A DNA stretch of 64,000 bases from Cyanophyceae cyanobacterium (GTDB lineage: Bacteria; Cyanobacteriota; Cyanobacteriia; Cyanobacteriales; JBHJGN01): the NCBI GenBank assembly GCA_050331735.1, contig JBHJGN010000049.1, positions 1 to 64,000 on the forward strand, given 5' to 3'. This document shows positions 35,347 to 51,811 of the stretch, piece by piece (the stretch's first letter is position 1; every line of letters starts with the position of its first letter). A program made the position numbers and the translations under genes. The notes under the pieces were generated by a model. The model ran no database searches and was not told the origin of the DNA. It saw only the letters and a program-made list of their open reading frames with translations.

Positions 35347-37362
35347 TTATTCATAGGCTTTGACAGAGGCTGACAGTTTCTGTCGCTGTCGCTTGAGCAT
35401 GGTACTGATGCCAAAACCAGCGAGCATCAGCAGACTAACAACCGCCGAAGGTTCGGGAACAGTAGTGGGTTGAGGGTCAGAAGGATAAGGGTTGTCCACT
35501 AAGTTTGTCAACCCAGAACCATCGGCTTCTACCCCAATTTCAGCGATAAAATCCTGGAAATAGCTGTCTAGAAAGTCTGCCATTTCCTCATCAGCGGGGG
35601 AGCGATCGCTCGGACTATCTGGCACGACCTCTAAGTTATTTAAGGTTGTCCCTGAACCGCTAAACTCTTGTAATTCCCCGGATGCAGCGTCTAGTTTCGT
35701 TAACCAAGTATCAAAAGACCCGACGTTCGTTGCTCCTAAAGATCCCCCGGTGATTCCGGTCGCGTATAGGTTGCCAGCGTTGTCTGCCGTAATGCCGTAG
35801 GCTTGCTCCAGTTCAGCCGTGCCAAACTGCTGGATCCAAGCCTGATTGCCATCGGTATCAAAGAGAGTCGCCCAAGCATCGAAAGAGCCAGCATTGTCTC
35901 CCTCTAAGCTACTGTTGGTATAGCCGGTGAGGAAAATATTGTCGTCGGCATCGATGAACAGGTCAAAGGGTTCGTCGTCGCCGGAAGTGCCAAACTGTTG
36001 AATCCACTGCTGGTTTCCCAACTCGTCATACTTAATCAGCCAGACATCATAGGAGCCAGCATTATCGCCCCCTAAGTTGCCCAAAGTCCAGCCGGTCGCA
36101 TAGACGTTCCCTTCGCTGTCGGTATCCACTCCCCAGGCCCACTCGTAATCCGTCGTACCGAACTGCTGAATCCAGTTTAAGTTGCCATCGTTATCTAGCT
36201 GAGACACCCAGGTATCGTAGAGTCCGGCGTTTTCTCCTTCTAGGTCGCCATAGGTCCAGCCAGTGGCATAAACATTACCATCGCTACCAACCGTCACTCC
36301 ATAGGATTCGTCGTAGTCTTCGACCCCAGGCACATCAGGAGTTCCAAAGAGGGTCAGCCACTGGCGGTTGCCGTTGGTGTCATATTTGGCGACGATAACA
36401 TCGTCGGTGGCAATATCTGCCGACGCTTCAACCCTTGTTCCCGAGACGTAGGCATTGCCCTCCTGGTCAACGTCAATGCTAAAGGTTTGCTCAATGACTT
36501 CTTCCCCAAACTGCTCTAGCCACTGCTGATTGCCATCGCCGTCGAATTTACCGATCCAGGCATCGTAGACTTCGGCTTGCCGGGGGCTGGCCAACTCGCC
36601 TTGGGTAATTCCGGTGAGAAAGAAGTTGCCTTGGTCGTCGGTGGCAATGTCGTAAGCGGTGTCGAAGCGGGAACTCCCAAACTGTTTCGCCCAAAGCTGA
36701 TTGCCTTGGTTATCGTATTTAGCAACCAGCACATCCCGCAGCCCAGAGTTTTCTTCGACTGCACCATTTGTCCCTCCTGCTATATAAATATTGCCTTCGG
36801 GATCGGTTGCCGTACCGAGACTGAGATCGTAATCTGTTGACCCTAATTGCTGCGCCTGATTCAAGACTGGTCCGGGGGGGGGAGACTCTCCTTCATATTG
36901 AAAGGAGTTACTCTCCAGGTCGAGATTAGACCCTCCGAGAATAAAGCCGACCACATCAGGGACATCCTGTTGCAGATATACGGCTGAACCGACTCCAACC
37001 TCTAAAAGTTGGTAATTATTTGAAGTTCCATGAAGCTCAACGGTATCCTCTCCGGCATTAAAGTCGGCAATAAAACCAAAGTTGTTTAAACCAAAGCTGT
37101 CTGGATTCCCGTTCGCGTAATAGGGTTGGGTCCAGTCACCAAGGACAAACGTATCATTCCAGGTTCGGAAAGCCGGGTCTTCAAAAGCAAGGTCGCCGAG
37201 GAAAATATCTACCTGGAGCTCGTTGGGATTAGCAGGCATAGATTGCTCGCCGAGAAAGGTGTCGTTACCAGTTCGACCGTAGATAATTTGACTAGGCACA
37301 AAGCCTGCGGCCACGTCGCTACCTGGATTGTAGGTTTGGACGGTAAATAGTTCTTCTTCCAT
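35347..37362 (-). CDS. CylK/BrtB-like alkyl-halide-using alkylating enzyme (RTX-like N-domain + seven-blade SBBP beta-propeller) with C-terminal PEP-CTERM
   Basis: N-domain 'IIYGRTGNDTFLG..DIFLGD..WNDTFVLGDWTQPYY..DFNAGEDTVELHG' resembles the CylK N-domain as recalled; seven 'GNxYxxGxT..DxWxxKxDxxGNQxWxxQFG' repeats; 'VPEP'-TM-basic tail; AAGGAG RBS; located beside a CylC-type halogenase cluster. Confidence 0.8.
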   Translation of the reverse strand: MEEELFTVQTYNPGSDVAAGFVPSQIIYGRTGNDTFLGEQSMPANPNELQVDIFLGDLAFEDPAFRTWNDTFVLGDWTQPYYANGNPDSFGLNNFGFIADFNAGEDTVELHGTSNNYQLLEVGVGSAVYLQQDVPDVVGFILGGSNLDLESNSFQYEGESPPPGPVLNQAQQLGSTDYDLSLGTATDPEGNIYIAGGTNGAVEENSGLRDVLVAKYDNQGNQLWAKQFGSSRFDTAYDIATDDQGNFFLTGITQGELASPRQAEVYDAWIGKFDGDGNQQWLEQFGEEVIEQTFSIDVDQEGNAYVSGTRVEASADIATDDVIVAKYDTNGNRQWLTLFGTPDVPGVEDYDESYGVTVGSDGNVYATGWTYGDLEGENAGLYDTWVSQLDNDGNLNWIQQFGTTDYEWAWGVDTDSEGNVYATGWTLGNLGGDNAGSYDVWLIKYDELGNQQWIQQFGTSGDDEPFDLFIDADDNIFLTGYTNSSLEGDNAGSFDAWATLFDTDGNQAWIQQFGTAELEQAYGITADNAGNLYATGITGGSLGATNVGSFDTWLTKLDAASGELQEFSGSGTTLNNLEVVPDSPSDRSPADEEMADFLDSYFQDFIAEIGVEADGSGLTNLVDNPYPSDPQPTTVPEPSAVVSLLMLAGFGISTMLKRQRQKLSASVKAYE

Positions 37363-38209
37363 CTTTCGCTCCTTCGTTTAAATCTGATTAAGAAAAGTCG
37401 GTATTTTGGCCAAAAAAATGGGATGAGGCGCTTTTGTGTGGTTTGCTCTTTTAAGCAAAGCCTTAATAATGTTTCAAATAACCACAGCAAACTTATCCTG
37501 CTTCTCCCCTGAAGCAAATACGCATGGATGCGTTGGTAGCAATCGAAGCTACGGGTGTTGCTGAAGTCGGTTCGTGCCTCGTTAAGAGTCAGCGCGCTTC
37601 TATATATAGTGCTATCTTGAAGTCTTCTTCGCCGTTGGTATCTTCGCGTACAGTCACCAGGGCGGCGATCGCTTTTACTAGTAGAATCAAACTAAGCAGC
37701 GAGCAGCTTAACTGCTAGTTCCGTTAAGCTCAAGCGCTTGAGAATTAGCGGCTCCGGTATCAGGCGAAACTGGTTTCTACTATTGCTTACTATCCGCTTA
37801 TTTAAGCAAGACTAAACTAGCGCCGAATTGCCTAAAAAGACTGGCTCCTTTAGCGTTTTATCAGCACGTCAGCACTAGTGATGGTGTTTCTAACGACTTG
37901 AAGCCAACCTTTAGCTGTTGCCGGACAAAAAAGGTGAAAGAAAGCAGATTAAGCATGATGTTTTTCTCCTGTAATATTGCATTCGCAGGGTGTTTTTGAA
38001 ATCCTCAACGAATGGAAATGCAATCTACAGTATTCATAACTTCTATCTCGCTCAGCGCACAAGTCGCTTTTGTCAGGTAGTTGTTTTTGTTTAGCTTGTT
38101 TATACTACTCTATTTATGCGACTTGCCTCTTCAGAGCTTCGCGATAAACTAACAATTACACTGAATTTTTTTTCACGCTGACTGTCGATTACACTCAAAT
38201 TTTTCTTAG

Positions 38210-39085
38210 ATGAATAATTACTCTCAACATTCTCGTTTGAGCTGCGTTCTCGATCCTGCCCTCGGTTTGTCCCGCTTTGGGGTTTATCTGGTGGAAAACC
38301 TGGGAGAAACGATGGAATTATGGGTGGGACGAGAATTTTGGAACGTGATTGGCAATCCTAATTTTTACCAACAACGACCAGAGTTAGTGCTTCCCAAAAA
38401 AGCTTTTTCTCAAACTACCCATGAAGAATGTGCTGCTATAGAAGAAACGTTATGGTCTCTTCAGCAGTGGGAAAAACTCAAAAAGAAAACTGATCTGGCA
38501 AGGCTTAATTTGCACTGGATTGGAGATAGTCTACAAGAATCGTATTTGCCTAAAAATATTGCTCTAGAAATATTTTGGCGCTGGGAATTTTTAGCGCGAT
38601 CGCTCGATGCTGAACTGAGCCACCATACTGATGAAGTCATGTCTCTTGCTTTTCGAGATACGGCAGCACTTGCTGCCAGTTTGGGGCCTGCATTCGTGTT
38701 AACCTACCAATCCCCGGAGAACGTGGCTCATAACACGCCCCCGGATATTTGCGTTGCTCTAGAAAACTGGGGCATTCCTTGCCATGCTCTTACCCAGGAG
38801 CAAACGATGATTGAAGAGCGAAATTATTTTCGCCAAATTCTGATTCGGAGTGGTTTGACTAAACTTTTTTGGACAAATCTGCACTTTATCGTTTTACATT
38901 TTGTTGCCCCTGCTGTATCTGCCTATTCCGGCTTCAGAGAGGATGAGCCAATTCAAGTATCTACTAATATTTCTACTAGCAAACCTGAGCGAACACTTAT
39001 ATCCCCAGACGAACTTCTCAAGAATCTAGAGTCAAAAAAATATTCTTGGCAGAACATTGAAGCATTTTGGTATCCGTTATCGTGA
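38210..39085 (+). CDS. Hypothetical protein, possibly a degenerate PIN-like fold
   Basis: 291-aa ORF; 'SCVLDP', 'LWVGREFW', 'RDTAALAASL', 'FVLTYQ' spacing resembles PIN-domain elements. Confidence 0.7.
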   Translation: MNNYSQHSRLSCVLDPALGLSRFGVYLVENLGETMELWVGREFWNVIGNPNFYQQRPELVLPKKAFSQTTHEECAAIEETLWSLQQWEKLKKKTDLARLNLHWIGDSLQESYLPKNIALEIFWRWEFLARSLDAELSHHTDEVMSLAFRDTAALAASLGPAFVLTYQSPENVAHNTPPDICVALENWGIPCHALTQEQTMIEERNYFRQILIRSGLTKLFWTNLHFIVLHFVAPAVSAYSGFREDEPIQVSTNISTSKPERTLISPDELLKNLESKKYSWQNIEAFWYPLS

Positions 39086-39376
39086 AGAGTCGCGTTCTTA
39101 GCGCATCGATTTAGCTATGTAAATGTAGCGATTAGGTTGTGTTTAATGGAAATAAACAGCTACTAAAGCCTAGTTATTAATAATAGCAAATGATAAACTA
39201 GTTTCACAAATGCAATTGCTTTAAATTAATTGTTTTACAATTTTTCTTACCTCTTCAGTTTTTCAAAACAAAGCCATACTTTTCTCAGGTATTTATCTTA
39301 CTAAAATAGAAATGACAATGCTATTTTTTAGGTAAAATATGTTTAAACTCCGTGCAAAGTTTTTTAGAAATTATGC

Positions 39377-39883
39377 TTGTCTACTTTGTTTAATGCCATG
39401 AATGATTCATCCAGTCGAGACACTGCTTGTTTAAAATCGGCGGCTCAACTTTCAAGATCGAGAATTGTTGACGGTTTCCAGGTTGAAGACTCCCGATTTT
39501 TAATTGTCTCCTGCCAGGATATTCCAGAACAACATCAACATATTAGAACTATCGTTTTTGATGATTCTGCTTGTTGTGCGGTGGTCGATCGTCTTGAAAT
39601 TGGCAAAAAACATTATTTAGTTGTAGAGGCACAAATAGACTTCGTCCATAATTACTCTAATCTTTCTGAGCTTTTGACAGACAGAGAGTTGCAGATTGTT
39701 GCCTTTGTTGCTCTAGGATGGTCTAACAAGCAGATCGCTAAACGGCTAGAGATTAGCGAGTGGACTGTTTCTACTCACTTACGGCGGACTTTCATTAAGC
39801 TTAATGTAGATAGTCGTGCTGCAATGGTGTATCGCTGTGCTCCTCTTATTCAGGGAATATTGCAAGAACAAGCAGTGTATTAA
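39377..39883 (+). CDS. LuxR-family HTH transcriptional regulator without a receiver domain
   Basis: C-terminal 'LTDRELQIVAFVALGWSNKQIAKRLEISEWTVSTHLRRTFIKLNV'; start may be ATG 39398. Confidence 0.88.
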   Translation: MSTLFNAMNDSSSRDTACLKSAAQLSRSRIVDGFQVEDSRFLIVSCQDIPEQHQHIRTIVFDDSACCAVVDRLEIGKKHYLVVEAQIDFVHNYSNLSELLTDRELQIVAFVALGWSNKQIAKRLEISEWTVSTHLRRTFIKLNVDSRAAMVYRCAPLIQGILQEQAVY

Positions 39884-39912
39884 AGAATACTCGCAATTCT
39901 TTAATACACTGC
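39872..39912. terminator. Perfect 17-bp inverted repeat over the luxR stop codon; probable terminator between the convergent luxR and methyltransferase genes
   Basis: GCAGTGTATTAAAGAAT (39872-39888), 7-nt loop, ATTCTTTAATACACTGC (39896-39912). Confidence 0.7.
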
Positions 39913-40137
39913 CTATTAGAAATCAATAAGGTTTTCAAAAACAATGTTTGTTTGAACTAGTTTATCAACACTTTTTAAGGCAAACAATATAAAAACAGAT
40001 CCGATAAGAGAACAAGCTTCAAGCTTCAAAGAAGCTAAACCAAATAAGAGTGACACCAAGAAATTCATTCAAACGCGCCCAGACAACACAATTTGCTTAT
40101 TGCTTAATACAGCAACGTTTACATCAGCAAATTTTGT

Positions 40138-40932
40138 TTATTCAGGATATATTGAAGTTAAATTTGTGCTATTTGGTCTGGCAGTTACTAATAGTTGAGG
40201 CATAGAAACGCCACCTCTGAAAATAAAGTCCCGCAAAATCCACCATCCTCTCCAAGTAGCAAACACGCGCAGCGCCGGTTTGGCTGACGGATAGAGTTGT
40301 CTCCAACGGAGAAGGTCAGCGCGAGACAAAAACCAATCATCGCAGCGGTAGAGGTCAACCGAGAATCTTGCTTTCTTAAGCAGCGCAAACACATCCCCCT
40401 GACTAAAGGCGTGGAGGTGATAGGGATCGATATGTCGGGTTTCACCAAGAGGTGCAGAAAGCAACAGATCTCCCTCTGGAACTAAAAGGTGGTGAATACG
40501 CTCGAGGAACTTGTTAGGATGGGGAACGTGTTCTATCGTCTCAAAAGAAACAACAACATCGAACGGCTCTGACCAATTAAACTGCTCTGCATCGGCGCAA
40601 ACAAATTCTAGGTTGTCCTCCTGATAGTTCTGCCTAGCATACTGCACCGTCTCTGGACACACATCAACTCCCACTACGGTCTGTGCACCAGCAAGGCATA
40701 ATATCTGGCTGCCGTACCCCGTACCGCAGGCAATATCAAGAACTCGTTTTCCTTTCACATAGCGTGCCGCCGTTTTATAGCGCTCAAAGTGAATATTAAA
40801 AATTTTTTGACTAGCCGGATCGTTCTGGGTCTTTTTGGGAATAAAGCGTTCCCAGGTCACGGTGAGAGCCTGGTTGGAGAGCACTACTGAGTTATACTGG
40901 TCTGCTTGTTCTTGGGGGATTTTGTCTTGCAT
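40138..40932 (-). CDS. Class I SAM-dependent methyltransferase (probable O-methyltransferase)
   Basis: 'HFERY', motif I 'VLDIACGTGYG', 'FDVVVSFETIEH', 'PYHLH'. Confidence 0.9.
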   Translation of the reverse strand: MQDKIPQEQADQYNSVVLSNQALTVTWERFIPKKTQNDPASQKIFNIHFERYKTAARYVKGKRVLDIACGTGYGSQILCLAGAQTVVGVDVCPETVQYARQNYQEDNLEFVCADAEQFNWSEPFDVVVSFETIEHVPHPNKFLERIHHLLVPEGDLLLSAPLGETRHIDPYHLHAFSQGDVFALLKKARFSVDLYRCDDWFLSRADLLRWRQLYPSAKPALRVFATWRGWWILRDFIFRGGVSMPQLLVTARPNSTNLTSIYPE

Positions 40933-41069
40933 AAAAACCTCTGAAAAATTGCAGGAGTTGATGGCTTGATCAGGAGAAGACTGACATGAGTTAGTTGAAT
41001 CAGCGTTGCTGAATCGGGAATGATTGAAGAGGATAGTCGTTAATGATTAACCATCAATTTCATAACGGT

Positions 41070-42287
41070 TTAATTAAGGTTGACACGACGATTAGCAGCC
41101 AGGCCGTTTAATAAATGCTGATAGTAGTGATGAAGCTTTTGACAGCCTTGCTCGACCGAAAACTGCTTGGCATCTTGCAATGCTCGCTGAGTAATGTCTG
41201 TAGTGTTGCTGGCTAAAACCCTTTCTAAGCAGTTCGCTAACTCTTCGACGTTATCAGGGGGAGCAAGATAGCCGTTGACGCTATCAATTAGATAGTCCGA
41301 TACGGCACCGCTATTGACCGTGACGACCGGAATGCCGGATGCCATGGCCTCTACTATCGTGAGTCCAAAGGTTTCATAGGGAGAAGGACTACAGAAAACA
41401 TCACCGGACGCTAAAACATTCGCCTTCGTTTCTCCGAGCAGAAAACCGGTAAAGTGAATATTAGAAATAGGTGCGGCTAGGCGTTTTAAGTGTTTAACCA
41501 CCTCATCAGGACCATCTCCGACAATGAGCAAAGCACAGTTAGGGTGAGATTGTTTGAGGAGGGCAAAGGCTTCGATGAGCAAATCGACTCGTTTTTCAAA
41601 GCCAAGACGACCTAAAAAAAGCAAGACTTGGCGATCCTCACTTCCTAGCCACGGTTCCAAGTGTTTCCGATGCCGACGCTCTGGAGAATAGGTAGAAATA
41701 TCAGTTCCGAAGAAAGGAATGACTTCAGTGTTCTGGATGCCCATTGCTTGGCAGCTTTGAGCCGCCGCCTGACTCGGACATACGGTGACATCGAGCTGAT
41801 GATAGAGATAGCTGGGAAGTCGCAAGCGACTGAACAAACTGCGCAACCACTGCCAGCCAGGATAGGTCTCGGAAAAATTGTAGACATCCGTATGGTACTC
41901 GGCGATGTAGGGAATGTGCTGCGAGTTCGCATAGCGCTGTCCCGGTAAATGCCACGCACTCAACAAAAAAAACCGCTCTACGTCTGTTGTTATAATCAAA
42001 TCCGGCTGATAATCCGCCAGCTTTCGGCTAATCTGGCGAGCGGCGGCTATGGTTGGGACATAGGTAAGTTTGTAGGGCAGCCAGGGTTTTGAACGGTAGC
42101 GTTCAACGGTCAGCTCTGAATCGGCTTCAGGGGATGCCGCTTGCCCATCTGGGGCAAACACCACGACCCGATATCCGTGCTGGGCCAACCACTGCACTCG
42201 CGCCCAGTTAAATAGAGCAGAACCACTCACTTCTGGAGGAAAAGCAGTGACAAGGAAAACAAGAGTATAAACGCGATCGAGGCTCAT
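41070..42287 (-). CDS. GT4-family (GT-B) glycosyltransferase
   Basis: Start reassigned to ATG 42287; 'FPPEVSG', 'YHTD', 'GRLGFEKR', 'ETFGLTIVEAMASG'. Confidence 0.92.
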   Translation of the reverse strand: MSLDRVYTLVFLVTAFPPEVSGSALFNWARVQWLAQHGYRVVVFAPDGQAASPEADSELTVERYRSKPWLPYKLTYVPTIAAARQISRKLADYQPDLIITTDVERFFLLSAWHLPGQRYANSQHIPYIAEYHTDVYNFSETYPGWQWLRSLFSRLRLPSYLYHQLDVTVCPSQAAAQSCQAMGIQNTEVIPFFGTDISTYSPERRHRKHLEPWLGSEDRQVLLFLGRLGFEKRVDLLIEAFALLKQSHPNCALLIVGDGPDEVVKHLKRLAAPISNIHFTGFLLGETKANVLASGDVFCSPSPYETFGLTIVEAMASGIPVVTVNSGAVSDYLIDSVNGYLAPPDNVEELANCLERVLASNTTDITQRALQDAKQFSVEQGCQKLHHYYQHLLNGLAANRRVNLN

Positions 42288-42321
42288 GGCTTGTATAAAA
42301 GAAACGTTAACTGATTCAGCT

Positions 42322-45300: not shown

Positions 45301-48069
45301 CAAATTTAGCAGCTTAGGCAACACTTTCGCCTCATCCGCTGATAGTTGGCCGGTCGCGAGCAGTTGCTGTTCGATTGAGCGGCGTTCGTCTGTGGGGAGC
45401 GCTAGCGAGGAAGCCTGACGATGACCATTCGCCTCTTTAAACCAGTAGCGCTGTCGCTGAAAGGGATACGTTGGCAGCACGACGCGACAACGGTGATAGT
45501 CTCGATCGAAGCCCATCCAGTCTACCGCGACTCCCCCCACATAGAGCTGCGCTAAACTTTGCAGAAGCGTTTGCCAAGGCGAACGCCTCGGCTCTAAACT
45601 AGCCAACCACCTCAATGGGGTGTAAGTGTTGCCGTCATTTTCGACCGCTAAACGTCCCATTCCCGTCAAAATTGGCTTGGGACCGCATTCTAAACCGATA
45701 TCAGCTTGGGCTTGCAGCACCTTGATGCCGTCCGCAAATCTCACCGGCTGGCGCAGGTGACGACACCAGTATTGCGGAGTGGCAATTTCTGCGGTGGCCA
45801 AGGCTCCAGTCACGTTGGAGATCAGCTTAACGGTCGGAGGGAAGTAGGTGACTTCCGAGGCCACCGCCTCGAAATCCGCCAGCATCGGCTCCATCAACGG
45901 AGAATGAAAGGCATGGGAAACCGTCAGGGGTTTCGTCTTGATTCCCTGGGCGGTGAGGGTTGCTCTGACGGCCTCAACGGACTTGCTCCGGCCAGAAATA
46001 ACCACGCTACGGGGTCCATTGAGCGCCGCGAGGGCAACTTGAGGGTAGGGAGCGATCGCTGCGGCCACCTGCTCGGCCCCGGCCATCACCGCTACCATCG
46101 CTCCATTAGCAGGAAGCGCCTGCATCAGCCGACCCCGAGCAGCAATCAGCTTCAAGCCATCTTCAAGGCTGAATACTCCGGCAAGACAGGCCGCGACGTA
46201 TTCCCCAACGCTGTGACCCATGACTATGGCGGGTTTGATGCCCCAAGCCATCCACATCTGCGCGAGGGCGTATTCCAGGGCAAAGAGAGCGGGTTGCGTG
46301 TAGGCGGTCTCGTCGAGCAGGGCGGAGGGTTGTTGAGGATACAGCAGCTCCAGTAAAGCATAGTCTAAGTAAGGGGCGAGGATAGTAGCACAGCGGTCGA
46401 GGGCGGCGCGGAAGGTGGGTTGAGTTTCGTAGAGCTGCTGACCCATACCGACGTATTGAGACCCCTGTCCGGTGAATAAAAAGGCAATTTTGGGACGCTT
46501 TTTGCTGGTGAGATGACCGCTAGCTAGCTCCGCTCCCGTTGCAAACGCTTCGAGAGCCGTGCGTAGCTGGGCCGCATCTGTGGCGGGGACCGCTAAGCGA
46601 TGGTTAAAGTGCGCTCGCCCGGTATTGGCCGTAAAGCACACATCGGCGATCGCCTCCTCCTGAGCGACAACGGCATAGCGCTGCGCTAATTCTTTCAGAG
46701 CGTCTGCACTCTTAGCAGAAAGGGTCAGCAGATGCAGCGGACGATCACAGTGACCTGCCTTCCGCCGATCAACCTTATTCGCGCTGGCGGGAACTTCCGG
46801 TGCCGCGGCTAACACGGCATGGCAATTTGTGCCTCCAAAGCCAAAGGCGCTGATGCCTGCTATCCGCTCGGGAGTATTCCAACGTTGATTCTCGGTGGGA
46901 ATGCGAAAGGAAGCTTCTAGGGTAATGTACGGATTGAGCTGCTGAAGGTGGAGATGAGGCGGAATCTCTCGATGCTGAAGCGCCAGCACCACCTTAATCA
47001 GGCTCGCCAGCCCTGCTGCTGCTTCCAGATGCCCAATATTGGTCTTCACCGAGCCAATCCAGCAGGGCTGATCCGCTTGGCGACCTTCCCGCAGGGCAGC
47101 CTGAATGAATTCCGCTTCGATCGGATCTCCTAAAGCGGTTCCGGTGCCGTGAGCTTCCACGTAGCTAATCTGCGCGGGAGCCACGCCCGCGCTGTCTAAA
47201 GCTTGACGAATCACTCGCTGCTGCGAAGGACCGTTGGGAGCCGTCAACCCATTGCTCAACCCATCCTGATTGACTGCTGAGCCGCGAATCACGGCCCGAA
47301 CGGTGTCTCCATCTCTGAGGGCATCCGAGAGACGCTTGAGGGCGATCGCCCCGCCGCCTTCTCCCCGCACATAGCCATCGGCCCGCGCGTCAAAGGTCTT
47401 ACAGCGACCGTCACTTGCCATCATGCGGGCTTGAGAATAATTAATCGTTGGCTCCGGCGACAGCATCAGGCTCACTCCCCCCACTAAGCAGAGCTCCGAC
47501 TCTCCCTGACGCAGACTTTGACAAGCGACGTGTACCGCCACCAACGACGAGGAGCAGGCCGTTTCTACCACCATGCTGGGTCCGCGCAGATTCAGCAGAT
47601 AGGACAGCCGATTCGCTGCGATGCACAGAGTATTCCCGGTGCCATCGTAGGCACTAATTTGGTTCAAATCCTGCGCCAGCAAGCGACCGTAATCGTAATT
47701 CCCAATGGCAATAAATACTCCTGTTTGACTGCCAGACAGCGTTTGAGGCGCAATTCCCGCATCTTCTAAACACTCCCAGGCCACCTCTAGCATCAGGCGC
47801 TGCTGCGGGTCGAGGCGCTCTGCTTCGCGGGGAGAAATATTAAAAAAACCAGGGTCGAACTGATCTACCTGCTCCAGAAATCCGCCCCAGCGCGTATTCA
47901 TCTTTCCAGGAGTGGCTGGTTCCGAAGCATAGAAAGCATCGACATCCCAGCGATTTCCTGGCACTTCCGTAATGGCATCGCCACCGCTCTGCAAAAGTTC
48001 CCAGAAAGCTTTGGGGTTGCTCGCTCCCGGAAAGCGACAGCCCATTCCAATAATTGCTATAGGTTCCAC
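42322..48069 (-). CDS. Single-module type I PKS: KS-AT-KR-ACP-thioester reductase
   Basis: KS 'TACSSS', 'EAHGTGT', 'NIGHLE'; AT 'GHSVG' + 'HAFH' (malonyl); KR 'GGLGALG', 'LDD', 'YAAAN'; ACP 'GFDSL'; R domain 'TGATGFLG', 'YSQSK'; GTG start after GAGGAG. Confidence 0.95.
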   Translation of the reverse strand: MEPIAIIGMGCRFPGASNPKAFWELLQSGGDAITEVPGNRWDVDAFYASEPATPGKMNTRWGGFLEQVDQFDPGFFNISPREAERLDPQQRLMLEVAWECLEDAGIAPQTLSGSQTGVFIAIGNYDYGRLLAQDLNQISAYDGTGNTLCIAANRLSYLLNLRGPSMVVETACSSSLVAVHVACQSLRQGESELCLVGGVSLMLSPEPTINYSQARMMASDGRCKTFDARADGYVRGEGGGAIALKRLSDALRDGDTVRAVIRGSAVNQDGLSNGLTAPNGPSQQRVIRQALDSAGVAPAQISYVEAHGTGTALGDPIEAEFIQAALREGRQADQPCWIGSVKTNIGHLEAAAGLASLIKVVLALQHREIPPHLHLQQLNPYITLEASFRIPTENQRWNTPERIAGISAFGFGGTNCHAVLAAAPEVPASANKVDRRKAGHCDRPLHLLTLSAKSADALKELAQRYAVVAQEEAIADVCFTANTGRAHFNHRLAVPATDAAQLRTALEAFATGAELASGHLTSKKRPKIAFLFTGQGSQYVGMGQQLYETQPTFRAALDRCATILAPYLDYALLELLYPQQPSALLDETAYTQPALFALEYALAQMWMAWGIKPAIVMGHSVGEYVAACLAGVFSLEDGLKLIAARGRLMQALPANGAMVAVMAGAEQVAAAIAPYPQVALAALNGPRSVVISGRSKSVEAVRATLTAQGIKTKPLTVSHAFHSPLMEPMLADFEAVASEVTYFPPTVKLISNVTGALATAEIATPQYWCRHLRQPVRFADGIKVLQAQADIGLECGPKPILTGMGRLAVENDGNTYTPLRWLASLEPRRSPWQTLLQSLAQLYVGGVAVDWMGFDRDYHRCRVVLPTYPFQRQRYWFKEANGHRQASSLALPTDERRSIEQQLLATGQLSADEAKVLPKLLNLLSEQQQTASLQDWFYQIEWQPQPRPVASERDGSNWLIFADDAGTGPAIAQQGQRCFLVYPGKTYQHQNGIYYLNPSRREDFERLFQELSAVSQEPLSIVYLWTGQEYLENLPIWSGEQPKTWGCGCVLYLVQALVKHGRFTAAQLWLVTRAVPVGTQPELSPAPLGGLGKVIALEHPELWGGTIDLAPEPSADEGEMLLAAMDLLGEQIACREGQLYVARLVRRQLSDSPPVPFRSDGTYLITGGLGALGLRVARWLVERGVQHLVLTSRRGASPSVQEVLNQLRGAEVRVVQADVSDRSDMNALFDEMQTSLPPLRGVIHAAGVLDDGILLHQDWQQFSRVLAPKVEGAWNLHQLTQHLPLDFFVMFSSAASVLGSPGQGNYAAANAFLDALAHYRCFLGLPGLSINWGPWSDGGMAAKLSSRYGEVTQGSTIAPEQGLQALAKVLGLEPQVAVLPFEWSAFQQQFGAGTQLPLLAELVSPTQAAASNQRSILSQWQEADEGDRSHLLTTYIQGQVAKLLEVAPAEIDIHQSLQDLGFDSLMAVDLRNAVQTQLQAELPIRAFIEEPSVANLLTLLTEQLTPGKPTAVVNEVDLDAEATLERTIAPGTDPVELITEPTAVLLTGATGFLGAFLLYELLQQTQADIYCLVRTADAESGYLRLQQNLATYALWQQDFRARIVPVVGDLAQPQLGLANDQWQHLAAHIETIYHNGAFLSYVYPYSRLKSINVLGTQEVLKLATTDRIKPVHHVSSVAVFESSAFYGKAVTEADLVVPSEGIYLGYSQSKWVSERLVTKAGERGLPMCIYRPPLISGHSRTGVWNTSGFLCRMIKGCIQMGSMADLDVLLDLSPVDYVAQAIVYLSKQKQSFGQAFHLQNPSPLHWSQLSEFMRFFGYAIDREAYSNWQAKLNDSRDNPLYPLLPFFVHRWLDDLTYIELNQQDKRPKIGCQATLAALADSNIDCPPLDFRLLDTYFSYLVRSGFISAPVAARRI

Positions 48070-48245
48070 AATCGCTCCTCGATCGTCCAGTTCTGCTGCT
48101 TTACACCCATCTTGACTGTGTGCTTGTCAACAATTATTTGCTCACCGTGAAATCTGGGTGGCGGTTCTTAACCATGAACAATCAACAAAAAGCAAGGCTG
48201 TCAGTTAATTTCTTAGGCCATCGAGAACCGCTACTCTCCAACTCG

Positions 48246-49595
48246 CTACTGATGCATAGAGCGAGAAAACTGCTTAAACGCCTTAACGTTGTTTTGCAGA
48301 GCTTGCTCAATCGAGCCTCCAGCAGCCATCAGGCGCATCTCTCGATTGACAGCCCACAGGTAGTCAACCCCGTCGAAGAAGCGGCGCAGATCGCTCAGCA
48401 GACGCTGATGATACTTAAGATTGATGTGAAATCCTTCGTGTTCTTGACACAAACATCTTTCTAGCCAGTACAGTGAATCTTGGGCAGAGAGATTAAAGAG
48501 CGGAGACTGAAGTAGCTGATAAAACGAGAGCATAAAGGGAGCATCATGTTTGCAGATAGCCGGCAGTCCACCCGAAAGACCATTGAGACTCACCTTTTGC
48601 ACCCGATAGATAGTGAGGTTAGCAACGAATTTTTCGTAGGCCGTCGGTTTAGAGAAGTCTTTATAGAGCTCTTTCCCAATCAGTTGAGAGGTGGTGGTGT
48701 GGAAAGATTCATCTAAAAGATGATAGTAGGATACCGCTGTTGGCACCGGAATAAACTCGCCAGCCTTCTCCAATTTTCGGTAGTACTGAACGTAGCGGTA
48801 TTCATAATTTTTGAGCAGCAGGTTAGCGATATAGCGCGTGACGTAGAACAGGCAGGCTAAGAAGGGGGAACTGCCGCAGTTTAACGTGAACAACTGCTGT
48901 ACTGAGCGGGGGGCTAATTGTCCGAGCAACCCCGTTGTTTGGGCTGGCAGCTTTTCCCCTTTAAGGTCCAGTTCTCGCAGGTACTGAGAATAACAATGGC
49001 CGGGTCTTAGCATTTGAGTCGTGAAGAAGCGAAAGGTAGATTCCTGGAGCGACTCGAATGGCTGCTGAGGCGCTATTCCTCTAGCAATCTGCTCGGTTCG
49101 TCTACCGTGACTAGCGGTTTTTAAGTCAGATCTTCCGAGTAGGGCTCGTTTTGTTTTCGATCCAATTCTTTGAAAGGCATGAATATGGGAGTATTCTTGC
49201 TCGGTTTCTAGCTGGAGCTCCTGGCAGAGGGTATCGTACCCGCCCAAGCTGGCGAAAACACCCGCCGTTACCTGATTGTAAAGCACTGCATTGGCTTCGG
49301 TTGCCGCCGTTTGGCTGTATTGCCTCATCCAGTAGAGATGGTTGAGTGCTCGTTGTTGTGAGGGGGAGGCTTCTACGTATAGCGGAGTGCCATAGAGGGT
49401 AGAAAGTTCCGGAGGACTCCAGTAATCATTAGCGTTATGAGCGTAGCTAAAGCTTTTCTCCAGCTCCTCTATTCTTTCGGTGTAGTCGGAATCAACGTTG
49501 CGCTGATAGGTAATTTCCGTTAGTTTGACGTGTTTTTTGACTCCCTGAGAGGAAGATGACAATTGGTTTTGAGGAGAGACAAGAGTATTGAGCAT
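48246..49595 (-). CDS. CylC-type dimetal-carboxylate halogenase (AurF-like ferritin fold)
   Basis: 'YWSPPELSTLYGTPLY', 'LNHLYW', 'EANAVLYN', 'ETEQEYSHIHAF' (ExxH), 'HLLDESFH', 'HEGFH'; directly after FAAL-ACP, as in cyl/col/brt-type clusters. Confidence 0.85.
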   Translation of the reverse strand: MLNTLVSPQNQLSSSSQGVKKHVKLTEITYQRNVDSDYTERIEELEKSFSYAHNANDYWSPPELSTLYGTPLYVEASPSQQRALNHLYWMRQYSQTAATEANAVLYNQVTAGVFASLGGYDTLCQELQLETEQEYSHIHAFQRIGSKTKRALLGRSDLKTASHGRRTEQIARGIAPQQPFESLQESTFRFFTTQMLRPGHCYSQYLRELDLKGEKLPAQTTGLLGQLAPRSVQQLFTLNCGSSPFLACLFYVTRYIANLLLKNYEYRYVQYYRKLEKAGEFIPVPTAVSYYHLLDESFHTTTSQLIGKELYKDFSKPTAYEKFVANLTIYRVQKVSLNGLSGGLPAICKHDAPFMLSFYQLLQSPLFNLSAQDSLYWLERCLCQEHEGFHINLKYHQRLLSDLRRFFDGVDYLWAVNREMRLMAAGGSIEQALQNNVKAFKQFSRSMHQ

Positions 49596-49640
49596 TAATT
49601 TTTCCTGACAGATAAAGAATCTGGTGACGATGGTGGTAGT

Positions 49641-49943
49641 TTATGATTGGTCTTGGCAGTCTTGAGCAATGCGCTCAGCTAACGCCTCAATGGTGGGGTA
49701 GTTATATAGCAGAGTCGGATTGAGTTTCCGCTCGAGCCAGTCTTCCAAATCTCCAGAGAGTTCAACAGCCTCCGCAGAATCAAGACCGTATTGCTCAAAC
49801 GGAAGCGTTACATCAACCTGTTCTGGCTCTTCTTCTAGCAGTTCGGCTAAATAGTTCACGATCCAGGTTTGAATGTCTTCGGGTGAAGGAGATTTCTGGG
49901 TGGGGACTGAAACCGTTGATGGGGCGTTATTCGGTTGATTCAT
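49641..49943 (-). CDS. Stand-alone acyl carrier protein
   Basis: 'IQTWIVNYLAELL', phosphopantetheine site 'YGLDSAEAV', 'PTLLYNYPTIEALA'. Confidence 0.93.
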   Translation of the reverse strand: MNQPNNAPSTVSVPTQKSPSPEDIQTWIVNYLAELLEEEPEQVDVTLPFEQYGLDSAEAVELSGDLEDWLERKLNPTLLYNYPTIEALAERIAQDCQDQS

Positions 49944-49984
49944 CAGGTTTTTTTAGTAGCAGTGCAGGTTGGGATTGAAGTTGC

Positions 49985-51811
49985 TTAGTGCTTCGATCCG
50001 GGGCTGGGGGAGAGTTGCCGGAATACCGCCTCGACCTCAGCTTGCAAATGCAAAAACTCGGCTTTATTCTGAGGATTTTCGCTCCAGTCCTCAACAACAT
50101 TCAGAGTGCCGTTGAGAAATCCAGAGAGACAGGCGTACCGCTGAATTTTGCCGCTGGTTGTCCTTGGAATACTGCCAGTTTTCACGAGGACGGTGGCGTA
50201 AACCTTCAGATCGTGCTGCACGTTGACAGCTCGACGAATACTATCAACGACGTCTTTCACGTTGAGCTTGCGGAGGTAGCTGCGCTTCACTTCCTGCACA
50301 ATGACCAACCGTTCTGTCCCTTTAATGGCTGCGGCAACCGCTGCCCCACAGTTGGGTCGTAGGGCGGGATGACTGTTCTCAACCGTTAGCTCAATATCTT
50401 GGGGATAGTGGTTTTGCCCGCGAATAATGATGACATCCTTAATTCTGCCAGTGATGAATAGCTCGTCATTTCGTAAAAATCCGAGGTCTCCAGTCCGCAG
50501 AAACGGTCCTGCTCCCGTGGCTAGATGAGCCTGAAAATCCCGCTGGGTTGCGTCGGGGCGTTGCCAATAGCCCTGGGCCACGCTCGGTCCCGCGACCCAG
50601 ATTTCTCCCACTTGGTTTGCCGGACTCGGCATCAACGTGTCGGGGTCAACGATCAGGAGGTTTTGGTCCGTTAAGCTCCGACCGCAGCCAACGAGGGCTT
50701 GGCTCTCTGGGGCAGTGCTTAGTACTACTTGGTCTTGCTCGAGGGCCGCTCTCTCTACCGAGCAAATGACGGGCGGCGCCGTTTTTTCTCCGCCAGAGAC
50801 GATCAAAGTCGCCTCTGCCATGCCATAGCAGGGATAAAAAGCTTCTTTGCGGAAGCCGCAGGGCGCAAACGTAGTCGCAAAGTTTTCTAGGGTTTGAGCG
50901 CGAACGGGTTCAGCCCCAACAAACGCTACCTCCCAACTGCTCAGGTCCAGACTTGCGCGCTGCTGAGCAGTAATTTTACGCACACAGTAATCGTAAGCAA
51001 AATTAGGAGCACCGCTGATCGTTGCTTGAAGGCGAGAGATAGCCTGAAGCCACCGGAGCGGTTTTTGCAGAAAATCTACGGACGACATCAGGGTGACGGG
51101 AAATCCGGCGTAGAGGGGCTGCAGTAATCCGCCGATCAAGCCCATATCGTGGTAAGGCGGCAGCCAGATTACTCCCTGAGTCGAGGGTGAATGAGCAAAG
51201 TACTGTTCGATGAGGTTGAGGTTGTGCATGAGGTTGCGGTGACTCACCATCACCCCCTTTGGCGTTCCCGTTGAACCCGAGGTGTATTGCAAAAACGCAA
51301 TCTCGGATTTGCGGGGTTTTGCTTCCCAAGTTCCTGCCTCGTGGGGGGTGAGGTGAGCTGTCGTCAGCCAACGCAGTTTCGCTAACTCTGAATTTTCGGG
51401 AAACCACCGCTCTATACTGGTAAATAATGAGGGTGTGGTGAGAGCAACAACCGCCTGAGCATCGCCGAGAATGGCCTCCAGCCTAGCTAAGTTTTGATTG
51501 CGGCGAGGCGGATAAGCCGGAGTAGCGATCGCTCCGGCATACAAACACCCAAAGAAAGCCGCAATAAACTCTAACCCAGACGGATACAGCAGCAAGACTG
51601 GTTTTCCGGTCGCGCCGGCTTCGAGAAGAGCGGCGGCGATCGCTCGAGCCTGTTCGTCTAATTCTCCATAGGTCAGTTTCCCAACCTCTTCTCCCTGCTG
51701 CAAAAATACATAAGTTTTTTGGTCGGGCTGACTCTGCGCTCGAGCGCGCAGTACGTCTACTAAACTCCCGACGGGCTTGCCTGGGCGCGAATAGTCGCAA
51801 TAAGCCGTCAT
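49985..51811 (-). CDS. Fatty acyl-AMP ligase (FAAL)
   Basis: 'FLQYTSGSTGTPKGV', 'WLPPYHDMGLIG', 'YGMAEATL', FAAL-type insertion, 'LRTGDLGF', 'IPRTTSGKIQR'. Confidence 0.93.
   Translation of the reverse strand: MTAYCDYSRPGKPVGSLVDVLRARAQSQPDQKTYVFLQQGEEVGKLTYGELDEQARAIAAALLEAGATGKPVLLLYPSGLEFIAAFFGCLYAGAIATPAYPPRRNQNLARLEAILGDAQAVVALTTPSLFTSIERWFPENSELAKLRWLTTAHLTPHEAGTWEAKPRKSEIAFLQYTSGSTGTPKGVMVSHRNLMHNLNLIEQYFAHSPSTQGVIWLPPYHDMGLIGGLLQPLYAGFPVTLMSSVDFLQKPLRWLQAISRLQATISGAPNFAYDYCVRKITAQQRASLDLSSWEVAFVGAEPVRAQTLENFATTFAPCGFRKEAFYPCYGMAEATLIVSGGEKTAPPVICSVERAALEQDQVVLSTAPESQALVGCGRSLTDQNLLIVDPDTLMPSPANQVGEIWVAGPSVAQGYWQRPDATQRDFQAHLATGAGPFLRTGDLGFLRNDELFITGRIKDVIIIRGQNHYPQDIELTVENSHPALRPNCGAAVAAAIKGTERLVIVQEVKRSYLRKLNVKDVVDSIRRAVNVQHDLKVYATVLVKTGSIPRTTSGKIQRYACLSGFLNGTLNVVEDWSENPQNKAEFLHLQAEVEAVFRQLSPSPGSKH

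What the first reader, a model, noticed from the sequence alone, without database searches (positions are those of the whole stretch)
35347..51811. Compact halogenated-glycolipid biosynthetic cluster: FAAL, ACP, CylC halogenase, reductive PKS, GT4, methyltransferase and a CylK-like alkylase
Seen: six co-oriented minus-strand genes (FAAL, ACP, dimetal enzyme, PKS, GT4, methyltransferase), a convergent regulator pair, and a seven-blade beta-propeller gene, sitting between the housekeeping genes murG and an ABC ATPase. Known: FAAL-ACP-CylC cassettes chlorinate acyl-ACPs in cylindrocyclophane and columbamide pathways, and CylC homologs also act in bartoloside biosynthesis. CylK/BrtB enzymes use the alkyl chloride as an electrophile. 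The closest precedent I recall is the nostochloroside (ngl) chlorinated-glycolipid cluster of Nostoc punctiforme. Inferred: a fatty acid is loaded, chlorinated, extended once, released as an alcohol, glycosylated, O-methylated, then joined to a nucleophile with loss of chloride. This version looks minimal (one PKS module, one GT, no type III PKS or dialkylresorcinol genes, no transporter), so the product is probably not a known compound.
Basis: partly seen in the sequence, partly recalled or inferred. Interest (0 to 1): 0.9.

Follow-up and report, generated by a model that had tools for sequence, protein, structure and literature searches.

The report
Compact chlorinated-glycolipid gene cluster, cyanobacterium
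A cyanobacterium from a metagenome carries a small, intact gene cluster that most likely makes a chlorinated sugar-lipid and then uses the chlorine as a leaving group to link it to another molecule; it is an uncharacterised variant of a recently discovered type of pathway and one of a widespread family.

Summary
Six co-oriented minus-strand genes are present: FAAL, ACP, a CylC-type diiron halogenase, one PKS module (KS-AT-KR-ACP-R), a GT4 and a methyltransferase. A CylK homologue (E 9e-139 to solved CylK) also lies between murG and an ABC ATPase.

The halogenase carries both signature motifs (QExxH, HxxDExxH). The CylK homologue keeps the halide-binding Arg and Tyr. At the nucleophile-activating position it has Glu, as in the O-alkylating BrtB and NglO.

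The cluster is not unique. Twelve other loci share FAAL-ACP-CylC-PKS(R)-GT4, and one same-order genome is collinear including the methyltransferase and the CylK homologue. It differs clearly from the only characterised chlorinated-glycolipid cluster, ngl (36 kb, multi-module PKS). My searches found no product for this architecture.

- The CylK homologue ends in a PEP-CTERM sorting tail, and the genome encodes cyanoexosortases A and B.
- The "regulator pair" is a conserved two-gene cassette in low-GC DNA.
- Sister clusters carry DevBCA-like exporters that are missing here.

Verdict: a real, orphan, new variant of a known kind. All chemistry is inferred. Interest is moderate (0.5), not 0.9.

The parts
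49985..51811 (-). Fatty acyl-AMP ligase (FAAL), 608 aa, first gene of the operon
   Evidence: Pfam AMP-binding 245 bits and AMP-dom_DIP2-like. The best NCBIfam matches are fatty-acid--AMP ligase models, all below their cut-offs. 54-66% identical to the FAALs of sister clusters.
49641..49943 (-). Stand-alone acyl carrier protein, 100 aa
   Evidence: Pfam PP-binding 58.6 bits. GLDSA serine motif seen in the translation.
48246..49595 (-). CylC-type diiron (dimetal-carboxylate) halogenase, 449 aa
   Evidence: QEYSH at residue 133 and HLLDESFH at residue 292. AurF Pfam score only 25.2 bits against a 29.6 cut-off. No PDB relative. 50 related loci at 41-69% identity. Clade with SH-aLRT support of 99.
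42322..48069 (-). Single-module type I PKS, 1915 aa: KS-AT-KR-ACP-R
   Evidence: Pfam domains. Motifs: ACSSS/HGTGT/NIGH in KS; GHSVG plus HAFH in AT (malonyl type, recalled rule); LDD in KR (B-type, recalled rule); GFDSL in ACP; TGATGFLG and YxxxK in R. The R domain matches MxaA, PDB 4u7w, at E 1.2e-100.
41070..42287 (-). GT4-family glycosyltransferase (ORF runs to 42362 from a GTG; probable start at Met26, 42287)
   Evidence: Pfam Glycos_transf_1 134 bits and Glyco_transf_4. 59-71% identical to the GT that follows the PKS in 10 loci and in G013 and G027. Only distant PDB relatives, such as PimA.
40138..40932 (-). Class I SAM methyltransferase, 264 aa
   Evidence: Pfam Methyltransf_11/31/25. 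NCBIfam gives UbiG, Mtf2 and phthiotriol O-methyltransferase matches below cut-off. A 56% identical orthologue sits in the same position in G027. Not found in any of the 50 loci at E 1e-10.
39377..39883 (+). LuxR/GerE-type transcription regulator, 168 aa, convergent with the operon
   Evidence: Pfam GerE 60.6 bits at residues 99-151; the N-terminal half has no family. A homologue lies beside the GT4 in L016. Paired with a relative of the 291-aa ORF in 5 of 8 other genomes.
38210..39085 (+). Conserved protein of unknown family, 291 aa, upstream partner of the LuxR gene
   Evidence: No Pfam or NCBIfam match. 77 homologues, most without any name and the few that are named, including all JGI ones, called hypothetical. 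Found in 8 of 400 other cyanobacterial genomes. GC 0.43, in a segment whose spacers fall to 0.29-0.32.
35347..37362 (-). CylK-family alkyl-halide-utilising enzyme homologue, 671 aa (Ca-binding N-domain plus SBBP propeller plus linker plus tail)
   Evidence: PDB CylK 7fh6/7fh7/7ron at E about 1e-138, collinear over residues 25-574. R30, Y382 and E352 stand at CylK positions 105, 473 and 440. Only one full-length copy in the genome.
35383..35460 (-). PEP-CTERM sorting motif (VPEPS, hydrophobic helix, KRQRQK) at residues 635-660 of the CylK homologue
   Evidence: TIGR02595 scores 21.0 bits against a 16 cut-off when the last 57 residues are scanned alone. Not listed for the whole protein. It is the only hydrophobic segment of the protein. 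Similar tails occur in G027 and in the second G013 copy.
39867..39917 (.). 22-nt inverted repeat overlapping the LuxR stop codon, between the convergent LuxR and methyltransferase genes
   Evidence: the repeat finder pair I1, 91% complementary with a 7-nt loop. A role as a terminator is inferred only.

Best explanation
This is an intact, orphan biosynthetic cluster for a chlorinated fatty-diol glycoside that is then coupled through its carbon-chlorine bond.

Proposed pathway:
1. The FAAL activates a free fatty acid and loads it on the stand-alone ACP.
2. The CylC-type diiron halogenase chlorinates an unactivated carbon of the acyl-ACP.
3. The single PKS module adds one malonyl unit and reduces the beta-keto group to a hydroxyl. 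Its MxaA-like R domain releases the chain reductively, most likely as a primary alcohol, which gives a chloro-1,3-diol.
4. The GT4 attaches a sugar and the methyltransferase O-methylates the sugar or a lipid hydroxyl.
5. The CylK homologue binds the secondary alkyl chloride with Arg30 and Tyr382. It uses Glu352 to activate an oxygen nucleophile and displaces chloride. The nucleophile is either a hydroxyl of a second glycolipid molecule (ether oligomers, as with NglO) or a fatty-acid carboxylate (esters, as with BrtB).
6. Its PEP-CTERM tail places this last step at a membrane or outside the cytoplasm.

Shown: gene identities, motifs, domain order, synteny and sorting-system genes. Inferred: every chemical step, the substrate chain length, the chlorination site, the sugar, the methylation site, the nucleophile and the location.
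For: Domain and motif evidence is. The R domain's closest solved relative is MxaA (E 1.2e-100), a 4-electron, alcohol-forming reductase according to passages of PMC5655351.

The CylK homologue matches solved CylK at E about 1e-138. Arg and Tyr are invariant in 10 of 10 aligned homologues, and Glu is present in at least 9 of 10. The roles of these residues are taken from PMC8916777 and PMC10849952.

The resorcinol-binding positions Glu374 and Leu438 of CylK are Gln292 and Tyr350 here. No type III PKS reaches the Pfam cut-off in this genome, which is 99.98% complete.

The core order FAAL-ACP-CylC-PKS(R)-GT4 is conserved in 10 of 50 loci, and also in G013 and G027. A CylK homologue is within reach in 8 of those 12.

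The precedent is ngl, which makes chlorinated 6-O-methylgulose glycolipids that NglO etherifies.

The PEP-CTERM tail scores above its cut-off. Cyanoexosortases A and B, each with its associated protein, are present above their cut-offs.
Against: - No experiment and no expression data exist for this cluster.
- The halogenation site, chain length and sugar cannot be read from sequence.
- A 2-electron release to an aldehyde is not excluded.
- The methyltransferase is not a conserved member of the family. It is absent from all 50 loci at E 1e-10. L001, L012 and G013 carry a different MT type.
- The CylK homologue is separated from the operon by a 2.8-kb low-GC insert and needs its own promoter. 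No promoter signal above chance was found.
- The protein has no N-terminal hydrophobic signal, and none is evident in the homologues' N-termini as printed. This is atypical for exosortase substrates (recalled).
- No exporter lies in the window.
- Dialkylresorcinol (DarAB-type) genes elsewhere in the genome were not searched for.
Confidence: 0.6

Rival explanations
1. The pathway ends at the chlorinated (methylated) glycolipid. The propeller protein is a PEP-CTERM surface or adhesion protein that happens to lie next to the cluster and does no chemistry on the product.
For: SBBP propellers are extremely common: 89,617 library proteins match at E 0.001, and most of the best 150 are giant surface proteins. 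The gene is separated from the operon by an inserted low-GC cassette. It carries a surface-sorting tail. At least three sister clusters (L008, L010, L013) show no CylK homologue within reach.
Against: The match covers the catalytic N-domain as well as the propeller (residues 25-574). The two residues required for CylK catalysis are invariant. Full-length homologues occur in only 2 of 40 same-order genomes, and in both they lie inside the same cluster type. In G027 the gene directly follows the MT on the same strand.
Confidence: 0.12
2. The CylK homologue performs carbon-carbon (Friedel-Crafts-type) alkylation of a resorcinol made elsewhere in the genome, as in cylindrocyclophane biosynthesis.
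For: By score it is very close to CylK itself (E about 1e-138). The genome is rich in other PKS/FAAL loci.
Against: The Asp440 equivalent is Glu, and Glu374 and Leu438 are replaced. No type III PKS reaches the Pfam cut-off in the genome, and there is none in the cluster. According to PMC8916777 only 19% of Arg/Tyr-bearing CylK homologues sit with a CylI-type enzyme.
Confidence: 0.05
3. The substitution is intramolecular. The 3-hydroxyl or a sugar hydroxyl of the same molecule displaces the chloride, giving a cyclic ether glycolipid rather than oligomers or esters.
For: The predicted monomer would carry both a nucleophile (1,3-diol or sugar hydroxyls) and an electrophile. The Glu base fits an alcohol nucleophile. 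O-methylation could block competing hydroxyls.
Against: There is no precedent. NglO gave no macrocyclisation products. Ring size depends on an unknown chlorination site.
Confidence: 0.08
4. The cluster is decaying or silent. The inserted cassette has uncoupled the CylK gene, the exporter has been lost, and no product is made.
For: It lacks the DevBCA-like exporter and the response-regulator/AraC gene found beside sister clusters. The halogenase has the longest end branch of its clade (0.52). A low-GC cassette lies between the MT and CylK genes.
Against: All nine reading frames are open and all catalytic motifs are intact. HIP1 sites within the insert suggest long residence. Six DevBC-like loci elsewhere could act in trans.
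Confidence: 0.1

Closest known systems
ngl (nostochloroside) cluster of Nostoc punctiforme ATCC 29133 (PMC10849952; I read the outline, passages, and sections 7 and 10)
   Same: It has the FAAL, CylC-type halogenase, PKS, glycosyltransferase and CylK homologue logic. The product is a chlorinated glycolipid with an O-methyl sugar. The CylK homologue has Arg, Tyr and a Glu base and carries a C-terminal extension. The chloride serves as a leaving group for O-alkylation.
   Different: ngl is 36 kb with 18 genes, has several PKS proteins with DH, ER and KS* domains, a sugar epimerase and a C21 odd-chain tail. NglO carries an RTX tail. Here the cluster is 16.5 kb with one KS-AT-KR-ACP-R module, reductive release, a GT4, no epimerase and a PEP-CTERM tail. 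I did not have the ngl protein sequences, so there is no identity figure. A multi-module Nostoc CylC/CylK cluster used as a stand-in (G041) has GT28-like GTs, no match to this GT4, MT or R domain, and CylK homologues at 38-41% identity.
cyl (cylindrocyclophane) pathway: CylA/B/C and CylK (PMC8916777: abstract and passages; PMC12101540: passages)
   Same: It has the FAAL-ACP-halogenase cassette. The CylK fold matches at E about 1e-138, and the halide-binding Arg105 and Tyr473 are conserved.
   Different: There is no type III PKS or resorcinol here. Asp440 is Glu, Glu374 is Gln and Leu438 is Tyr. The protein lacks about 75 N-terminal residues of CylK and gains a roughly 97-residue linker plus sorting tail.
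brt (bartoloside) pathway: BrtJ/BrtB (details taken from passages of PMC8916777 and PMC10849952; of PMC7081238 I saw only the search listing and the start of its abstract)
   Same: A CylC-type halogenase works with a CylK homologue that has a Glu at the 440 position and forms C-O bonds. The products are glycosylated lipids.
   Different: brt builds a dialkylresorcinol (DarAB type). BrtB has Arg at the 374 position, where this protein has Gln.
'Type I PKS' class of CylC-encoding clusters (columbamide, chlorosphaerolactylate, microginin, puwainaphycin types) in PMC8406957 (passages)
   Same: [quoted passage not shown]
   Different: In the text I could read, those clusters are not described with a terminal reductase, a GT or a CylK homologue. 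The supplement that shows the clusters could not be read.
Heterocyst glycolipid pathway (fatty-alcohol glycosides; DevBCA export)
   Same: Both involve a long-chain alcohol glycoside, which PMC10849952 compares to nostochlorosides. Sister clusters carry a HlyD, FtsX/MacB-type and ABC ATPase trio of the DevBCA kind (the DevBCA name and role are recalled).
   Different: That pathway has no halogenase or CylK homologue. This window has no exporter. The relation is by analogy only and was not tested by sequence.

Membership tests
CylC-type dimetal (diiron) halogenases | QExxH and HxxDExxH motifs holding seven of the nine conserved active-site residues (PMC12101540) | tested here: met
   QEYSH at residue 133 and HLLDESFH at residue 292. 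Both motifs are also present in 56 of 56 homologue ORFs from the loci and in the second genomic copy.
CylC-type dimetal (diiron) halogenases | Only remote similarity to AurF; not a member of the N-oxygenase family | tested here: met
   Pfam AurF scores 25.2 bits, below the 29.6 cut-off, over residues 53-151 only. No PDB sequence match at E 1.
CylC-type dimetal (diiron) halogenases | Encoded behind a FAAL and an ACP whose acyl-thioester is the substrate | tested here: met
   The gene order FAAL-ACP-halogenase has 41- and 45-nt spacers. In one search, 39 of the 50 related loci show both a FAAL and an ACP match.
CylC-type dimetal (diiron) halogenases | Chlorination activity on acyl-ACP | not testable with these tools
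   Needs an enzyme assay.
CylK family of alkyl-halide-utilising enzymes | Fusion of an N-terminal Ca-binding beta-roll domain with a C-terminal beta-propeller | tested here: met
   Collinear alignment to PDB CylK over query residues 25-242 and 379-574, with the middle blades placed by a second search. No 3D model was obtained.
CylK family of alkyl-halide-utilising enzymes | Halide-binding Arg105 and Tyr473 | tested here: met
   R30 and Y382; both are invariant in 10 of 10 aligned homologues.
CylK family of alkyl-halide-utilising enzymes | Acidic nucleophile-activating residue at position 440 | tested here: met
   E352 (Glu, as reported for NglO and BrtB; Asp in CylK).
CylK family of alkyl-halide-utilising enzymes | [quoted passage not shown] | tested here: met
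   The halogenase gene lies 10.9 kb away in the same cluster. The same pairing occurs in L001, L004, L006, L007, L012, L015, L017, G013 and G027.
CylK sensu stricto (resorcinol C-alkylation) | Resorcinol-contacting Glu374 and Leu438, and a co-clustered type III PKS | tested here: not met
   Gln292 and Tyr350 stand at these positions. No type III PKS in the cluster, and none above the cut-off in the genome.
ngl-type nostochloroside cluster | Multi-module PKS with DH, ER and KS* domains; about 36 kb; 18 genes; sugar epimerase | tested here: not met
   One module without DH or ER; nine genes in 16.5 kb; no epimerase gene (compared).
ngl-type nostochloroside cluster | Glycosyltransferase plus O-methylated sugar plus a CylK homologue that etherifies | tested here: inconclusive
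   A GT4, an MT and a CylK homologue with a Glu base are present. The sugar, the methylation site and the reaction are unknown.
PEP-CTERM / exosortase substrates | C-terminal PEP motif, a transmembrane helix and a basic cluster matching TIGR02595 | tested here: met
   21.0 bits against a 16 cut-off on the 57-residue tail. The whole-protein scan did not list it.
PEP-CTERM / exosortase substrates | An exosortase is encoded in the genome | tested here: met
   Cyanoexosortase B scores 445 bits (cut-off 300) and cyanoexosortase A 320 bits (cut-off 150). Each lies next to its associated protein.
PEP-CTERM / exosortase substrates | N-terminal signal peptide (this expectation is recalled) | tested here: not met
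   There is no hydrophobic window in the first 600 residues. The N-terminus aligns from residue 1 with L006, and the homologues' printed N-termini show no evident hydrophobic leader by eye. No dedicated signal-peptide predictor was available.
Fatty acyl-AMP ligases | Curated FAAL model score, or the FAAL-specific insertion | tested here: inconclusive
   The best NCBIfam matches are FAAL models (PRK05850 at 470 bits), but all fall below their cut-offs. The insertion motif was not examined.

The most novel reading that the evidence does not exclude
The last step of this pathway takes place outside the cytoplasm. The CylK homologue would be handed to a cyanoexosortase through its PEP-CTERM tail and would polymerise the exported chlorinated glycolipid on the cell envelope. 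It would use chloride as the leaving group and so need no ATP. The result would be an ether-linked lipid-sugar layer, a new way to build an envelope polymer in non-heterocystous cyanobacteria.

Several observations would then have one explanation: the family-wide C-terminal appendages typical of secreted proteins (RTX, DUF4114-like ends, PEP-CTERM), the Ca-dependent RTX-like N-domain (PMC8916777), and the DevBCA-like exporters of sister clusters.
Probability: 0.15. Interest if true: 0.8.

Novelty: new variant of a known kind. Interest (0 to 1): 0.5.

Why it matters
Cryptic halogenation, in which a chlorine is installed only to be displaced, is a recently recognised biosynthetic strategy. Only three CylK-type reactions are characterised: C-C with resorcinols, C-O with carboxylates and C-O with alcohols.

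The one known glycolipid example (ngl) is 36 kb and comes from a slow grower. Its oligomer linkage could not be solved for lack of material.

This cluster has the same logic in seven biosynthetic genes and about 14 kb of coding sequence. It is small enough to synthesise and express, so it could serve as a tractable model for three things: the halogenase, reductive release followed by glycosylation, and the O-alkylating CylK reaction.

The survey also defines a family of at least 13 such clusters across several cyanobacterial orders whose product class is unknown.

The PEP-CTERM tail raises a testable question about where CylK-type enzymes act in the cell. Neither paper that I read on CylK or NglO settles this.

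Tried and rejected
- **Rfam** over the whole window found no family at gathering score.
- **Promoter and terminator scan** of 34.8-53 kb gave counts equal to shuffles: 15 promoter-like sites against 14.0, and 21 terminator-like sites against 20.1.
- **Expression:** no RNA holder is listed. The only holder is one DNA run, which may be the source.
- **Read laying** showed one contig that skips 44087-45442 with only 23 letters on one side. This is not interpretable.
- **Structure prediction** of the CylK homologue was not sent, twice, because the queue was full. There is therefore no model, no fold search and no blade count from structure.
- **Possible wrong start or frameshift at the CylK 5' end** (overlapping ORF 37209-37517): rejected. 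That frame is full of stops upstream, and the L006 homologue aligns from residue 1 of both proteins.
- **Possible misassembly of the low-GC cassette:** not supported.
- **Island borders:** no flanking direct repeats. There is no genome of the same family or genus to compare the empty site.
- **The 291-aa ORF:** no Pfam or NCBIfam hit even at E 1. The Atlas lead (LIC12162 transferase; score 0.91, 162 shared features) is below the tool's own reliability guide, and the Atlas model is poor (pLDDT 0.30).
- **Stand-in for ngl:** a multi-module Nostoc cluster (G041) was examined. Its gene content (UDP-galactopyranose mutase, MFS transporter, two CylK copies) does not let me equate it with ngl.
- **Supplements:** the BMC Genomics supplement could not be read. 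It may already depict members of this cluster family. The eLife supplements held none of the four organism names I searched for.
- **Earlier findings of this scan:** nothing near the window, nothing for all five words, and the eight CylK notes shown (of 18 found) concern unrelated propeller proteins.
- **Literature:** 'nostochloroside' occurs in 3 papers and none describes this architecture. The CylK/NglO/BrtB search from 2023 on returned 3 papers. 'PEP-CTERM' together with 'CylK' returned 0 papers.

Full report
**What is there**

The finding's coordinates hold exactly. On the minus strand, from 51811 down to 40138, lie six genes with spacers of 34-176 nt:
- a FAAL (608 aa);
- a 100-aa ACP;
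- a 449-aa protein with only a sub-threshold AurF match;
- a 1915-aa PKS;
- a GT4 glycosyltransferase;
- a class I SAM methyltransferase.

Two plus-strand genes follow: a 291-aa ORF without any family and a LuxR/GerE regulator. After them, again on the minus strand, comes a 671-aa SBBP-propeller protein that ends 35 nt from the convergent murG.

The other side is bounded by a 932-nt spacer and a MalK-like ABC ATPase, followed by nadA. The other 33 window ORFs that I scanned are housekeeping or of unknown family, and none showed a further biosynthetic or exporter domain.

The genome is a 5.57-Mb, 49.5% GC, 99-contig cyanobacterial assembly, 99.98% complete. All named relatives of the cluster genes are cyanobacteria, apart from two bins with implausible labels. 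HIP1 (GCGATCGC) occurs 44 times in the window.

**The halogenase**

PMC12101540 (passages) defines the diiron halogenases by nine conserved residues, seven of which lie in a QExxH and an HxxDExxH motif. It describes them as only 12% identical to AurF. The window protein has QEYSH at residue 133 and HLLDESFH at residue 292. All 56 homologue ORFs in the fetched loci, and a second copy in the same genome, also have both motifs.

Its Pfam AurF score (25.2 bits) is below the cut-off, and it has no PDB relative. In a 60-row tree it falls in a clade of 19 rows with SH-aLRT support of 99.

Thirteen rows of that clade, the window's among them, are followed by the PKS and the GT4. One (L007) has a GT28-like GT instead. 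Four (L002, L003, L009, L011) are cut by contig ends. One (L005) shows no match to the window's FAAL, ACP or PKS.

**The PKS**

- The KS has its Cys/His/His residues.
- The AT has GHSVG and HAFH, which is the malonyl type by the recalled rule.
- The KR has the LDD motif, which is B-type by the recalled rule.
- The ACP has GFDSL.
- The R domain has TGATGFLG and YxxxK.
- There is no DH or ER.

The closest solved relative of the R domain is the myxalamid MxaA reductase (E 1.2e-100). A review describes MxaA as a 4-electron, primary-alcohol-forming release domain (PMC5655351, passages). One extension, one ketoreduction and reductive release predict a 1,3-diol two carbons longer than the loaded acid.

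**The CylK homologue**

It matches the four solved CylK sequences at E about 1e-138. The match is collinear from residue 25 to residue 574. A second search with the middle blades fixed the register.

Using the 7fh7 numbering, which reproduces the paper's Leu438, Asp440 and Tyr473, the equivalents are:
- Arg105 = R30;
- Tyr473 = Y382;
- Asp440 = E352;
- Leu438 = Y350;
- Glu374 = Q292.

According to PMC8916777 and PMC10849952, Arg and Tyr bind the alkyl halide and are required for catalysis. Asp440 activates the resorcinol, and the two O-alkylating relatives, BrtB and NglO, have Glu there.

In my alignment of ten homologues, R30 and Y382 are invariant and E352 is nearly so.

The genome holds no other full-length copy. 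It holds no type III PKS above the Pfam cut-off.

I therefore read the enzyme as an alkyl-chloride-activating member of the family with an oxygen nucleophile. The choice between alcohol and carboxylate stays open.

After the propeller come a roughly 60-residue linker and a tail made of VPEPS, a hydrophobic helix and KRQRQK. Scanned alone, the tail passes the curated PEP-CTERM model (21.0 bits against 16). The whole-protein scan did not list it.

The genome encodes cyanoexosortase A and cyanoexosortase B, each next to its associated protein, all above their cut-offs.

The collinear homologue in G027 (VPEPS) and the second copy in G013 (VPEAS) have similar tails. Other homologues end in RTX repeats, as published for NglO, or in other appendages.

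From the 150 best library representatives I picked by eye the 37 whose single match spans both domains. One of these (P0033) has a PEP-CTERM-like end by my pattern. Several have RTX-type or GGGDxDFND-type ends.

Against export: the protein has no N-terminal hydrophobic segment, and I saw none in the homologues' printed N-termini. A cytoplasmic, tail-anchored arrangement is therefore equally possible.

No paper in the library mentions PEP-CTERM together with CylK.

**Family and relatives**

- Of 50 loci fetched through the halogenase, 10 carry the GT4 right behind a roughly 2000-aa PKS that aligns through the R domain. Eight of the 50 carry a CylK homologue.
- Among 40 same-order genomes, full-length CylK homologues occur only in G013 (two copies) and G027.
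- G027 is collinear with the window: FAAL, ACP, CylC, PKS, GT4, MT (56% identical) and CylK, all on one strand with nothing in between.
- Many sister loci also have a divergent unit of a response-regulator/AraC gene and a HlyD plus FtsX/MacB plus ABC ATPase exporter. Some have FabF-like and FabA-like genes, a P450 or a PapA-like acyltransferase.
- The window has none of these. Six DevBC-like loci lie elsewhere in the genome.
- The methyltransferase is the least conserved part. It has no match in the 50 loci at E 1e-10. A different MT type occurs in L001, L012 and G013.

**The inserted cassette**

The 2.8 kb between the MT and CylK genes has a GC of 0.29-0.43, against 0.47-0.56 for the biosynthetic genes.

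The 291-aa ORF belongs to a real but unnamed family. It has 77 homologues and occurs in 8 of 400 other cyanobacterial genomes. In 5 of those 8, a homologue of the LuxR gene lies within 1.5 kb, in four of them directly downstream on the same strand. One such pair (L077) abuts a KS.

The 'regulator pair' is therefore a conserved, probably mobile two-gene module. Only one of its genes is demonstrably a regulator.

Independent contigs bridge both junctions at even depth.

**Comparison with what is known**

Nostochlorosides are chlorinated glycolipids with 6-O-methylgulose. They are made by the 36-kb ngl cluster and oligomerised by NglO through etherification.

The present cluster shares that logic but not its parts. 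This answers the second refutation test.

PMC8916777 and PMC10849952 already state that many CylK genes sit with CylC genes in uncharacterised clusters without resorcinol enzymes. The existence of such orphans is therefore known. This particular architecture, its spread and its tail are not described in the texts I could search. The unread supplement of PMC8406957 may show some members.

**Verdict**

The cluster is a new variant of a known kind and a member of a family of at least 13 clusters.

My confidence is 0.6 in the full pathway with O-alkylation. The remainder is spread over an unrelated surface role for the propeller protein, intramolecular etherification, C-alkylation, and a silent cluster. 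Interest is 0.5.

Noticed in passing
G000 contig C11:825-8392 (locus L073): A second CylC-type halogenase (about 40% identical overall, 46-50% over the two best-matching parts; both motifs present) sits in a different cluster. That cluster has a KAS III, two sulfotransferases, a cytochrome P450 and a fatty-acid hydroxylase, with an IS240-type transposase fragment behind it. This is the 'P450/sulfotransferase' architecture that PMC8406957 found only once, in a Stanieria strain.
   Followed up: partly
window 38210-39883; loci L075, L076, L077, L080, L082: The 291-aa protein of unknown family and the LuxR-type gene form a conserved pair in 5 of 8 other cyanobacterial genomes that hold the 291-aa gene. 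In L077 the pair lies next to a ketosynthase. It may be a portable regulatory cassette of secondary-metabolite clusters.
   Followed up: partly
G013:C15:3189-26594 (L063, L064): A sister cluster carries two CylK homologues. One, with an RTX-type end, lies between the PKS and the GT4. A convergent one has a VPEA-type tail. The cluster also has a DevBC-like exporter, a response-regulator/AraC gene, a Methyltransf_23 MT and a FabA-like gene.
   Followed up: partly
library proteins P0012, P0038, P0054, P0133 and others: Full-length CylK-like proteins carry very varied C-terminal appendages: RTX repeats, ends of the type GGGDxDFND, Ser/Thr-rich linkers and PEP-CTERM. Most of these are typical of secreted or surface proteins.
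   Followed up: no
L031 (Desmonostoc vinosum MAG), positions about 700-2700 and 7600-14000: Homologues of the window's murG (58%) and of the neighbouring 259-aa protein (47%) lie a few kb from another FAAL-ACP-CylC-PKS cluster of a different halogenase clade. This may be coincidence or a shared insertion neighbourhood.
   Followed up: no
L016 (labelled Chloroflexaceae) and L024 (labelled Candidatus Gracilibacteria): These two bins carry typical cyanobacterial CylC clusters. L016 has a PKS broken into five ORFs. The labels are probably binning errors, and the breaks may be assembly frameshifts.
   Followed up: no
L005 (uncultured bacterium MAG), 9971-11365: This is the closest halogenase homologue (69%). 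The window's FAAL, ACP and PKS found no match in the 10 kb before it or the 4.6 kb after it, unlike the rest of its clade.
   Followed up: no
window 30704-33280 and 33367-34146: Three co-oriented ORFs (464, 151 and 234 aa) give almost no family signal; the first has a weak MotA/ExbB match. A 259-aa ORF has only sub-threshold SnoaL/DUF4440 hints. All lie just outside the cluster next to murG.
   Followed up: no
window 41070-42362: The longest GT4 reading frame starts at a GTG that overlaps the PKS stop by 41 nt. Homologues align from Met26, so 42287 is the likelier start.
   Followed up: yes
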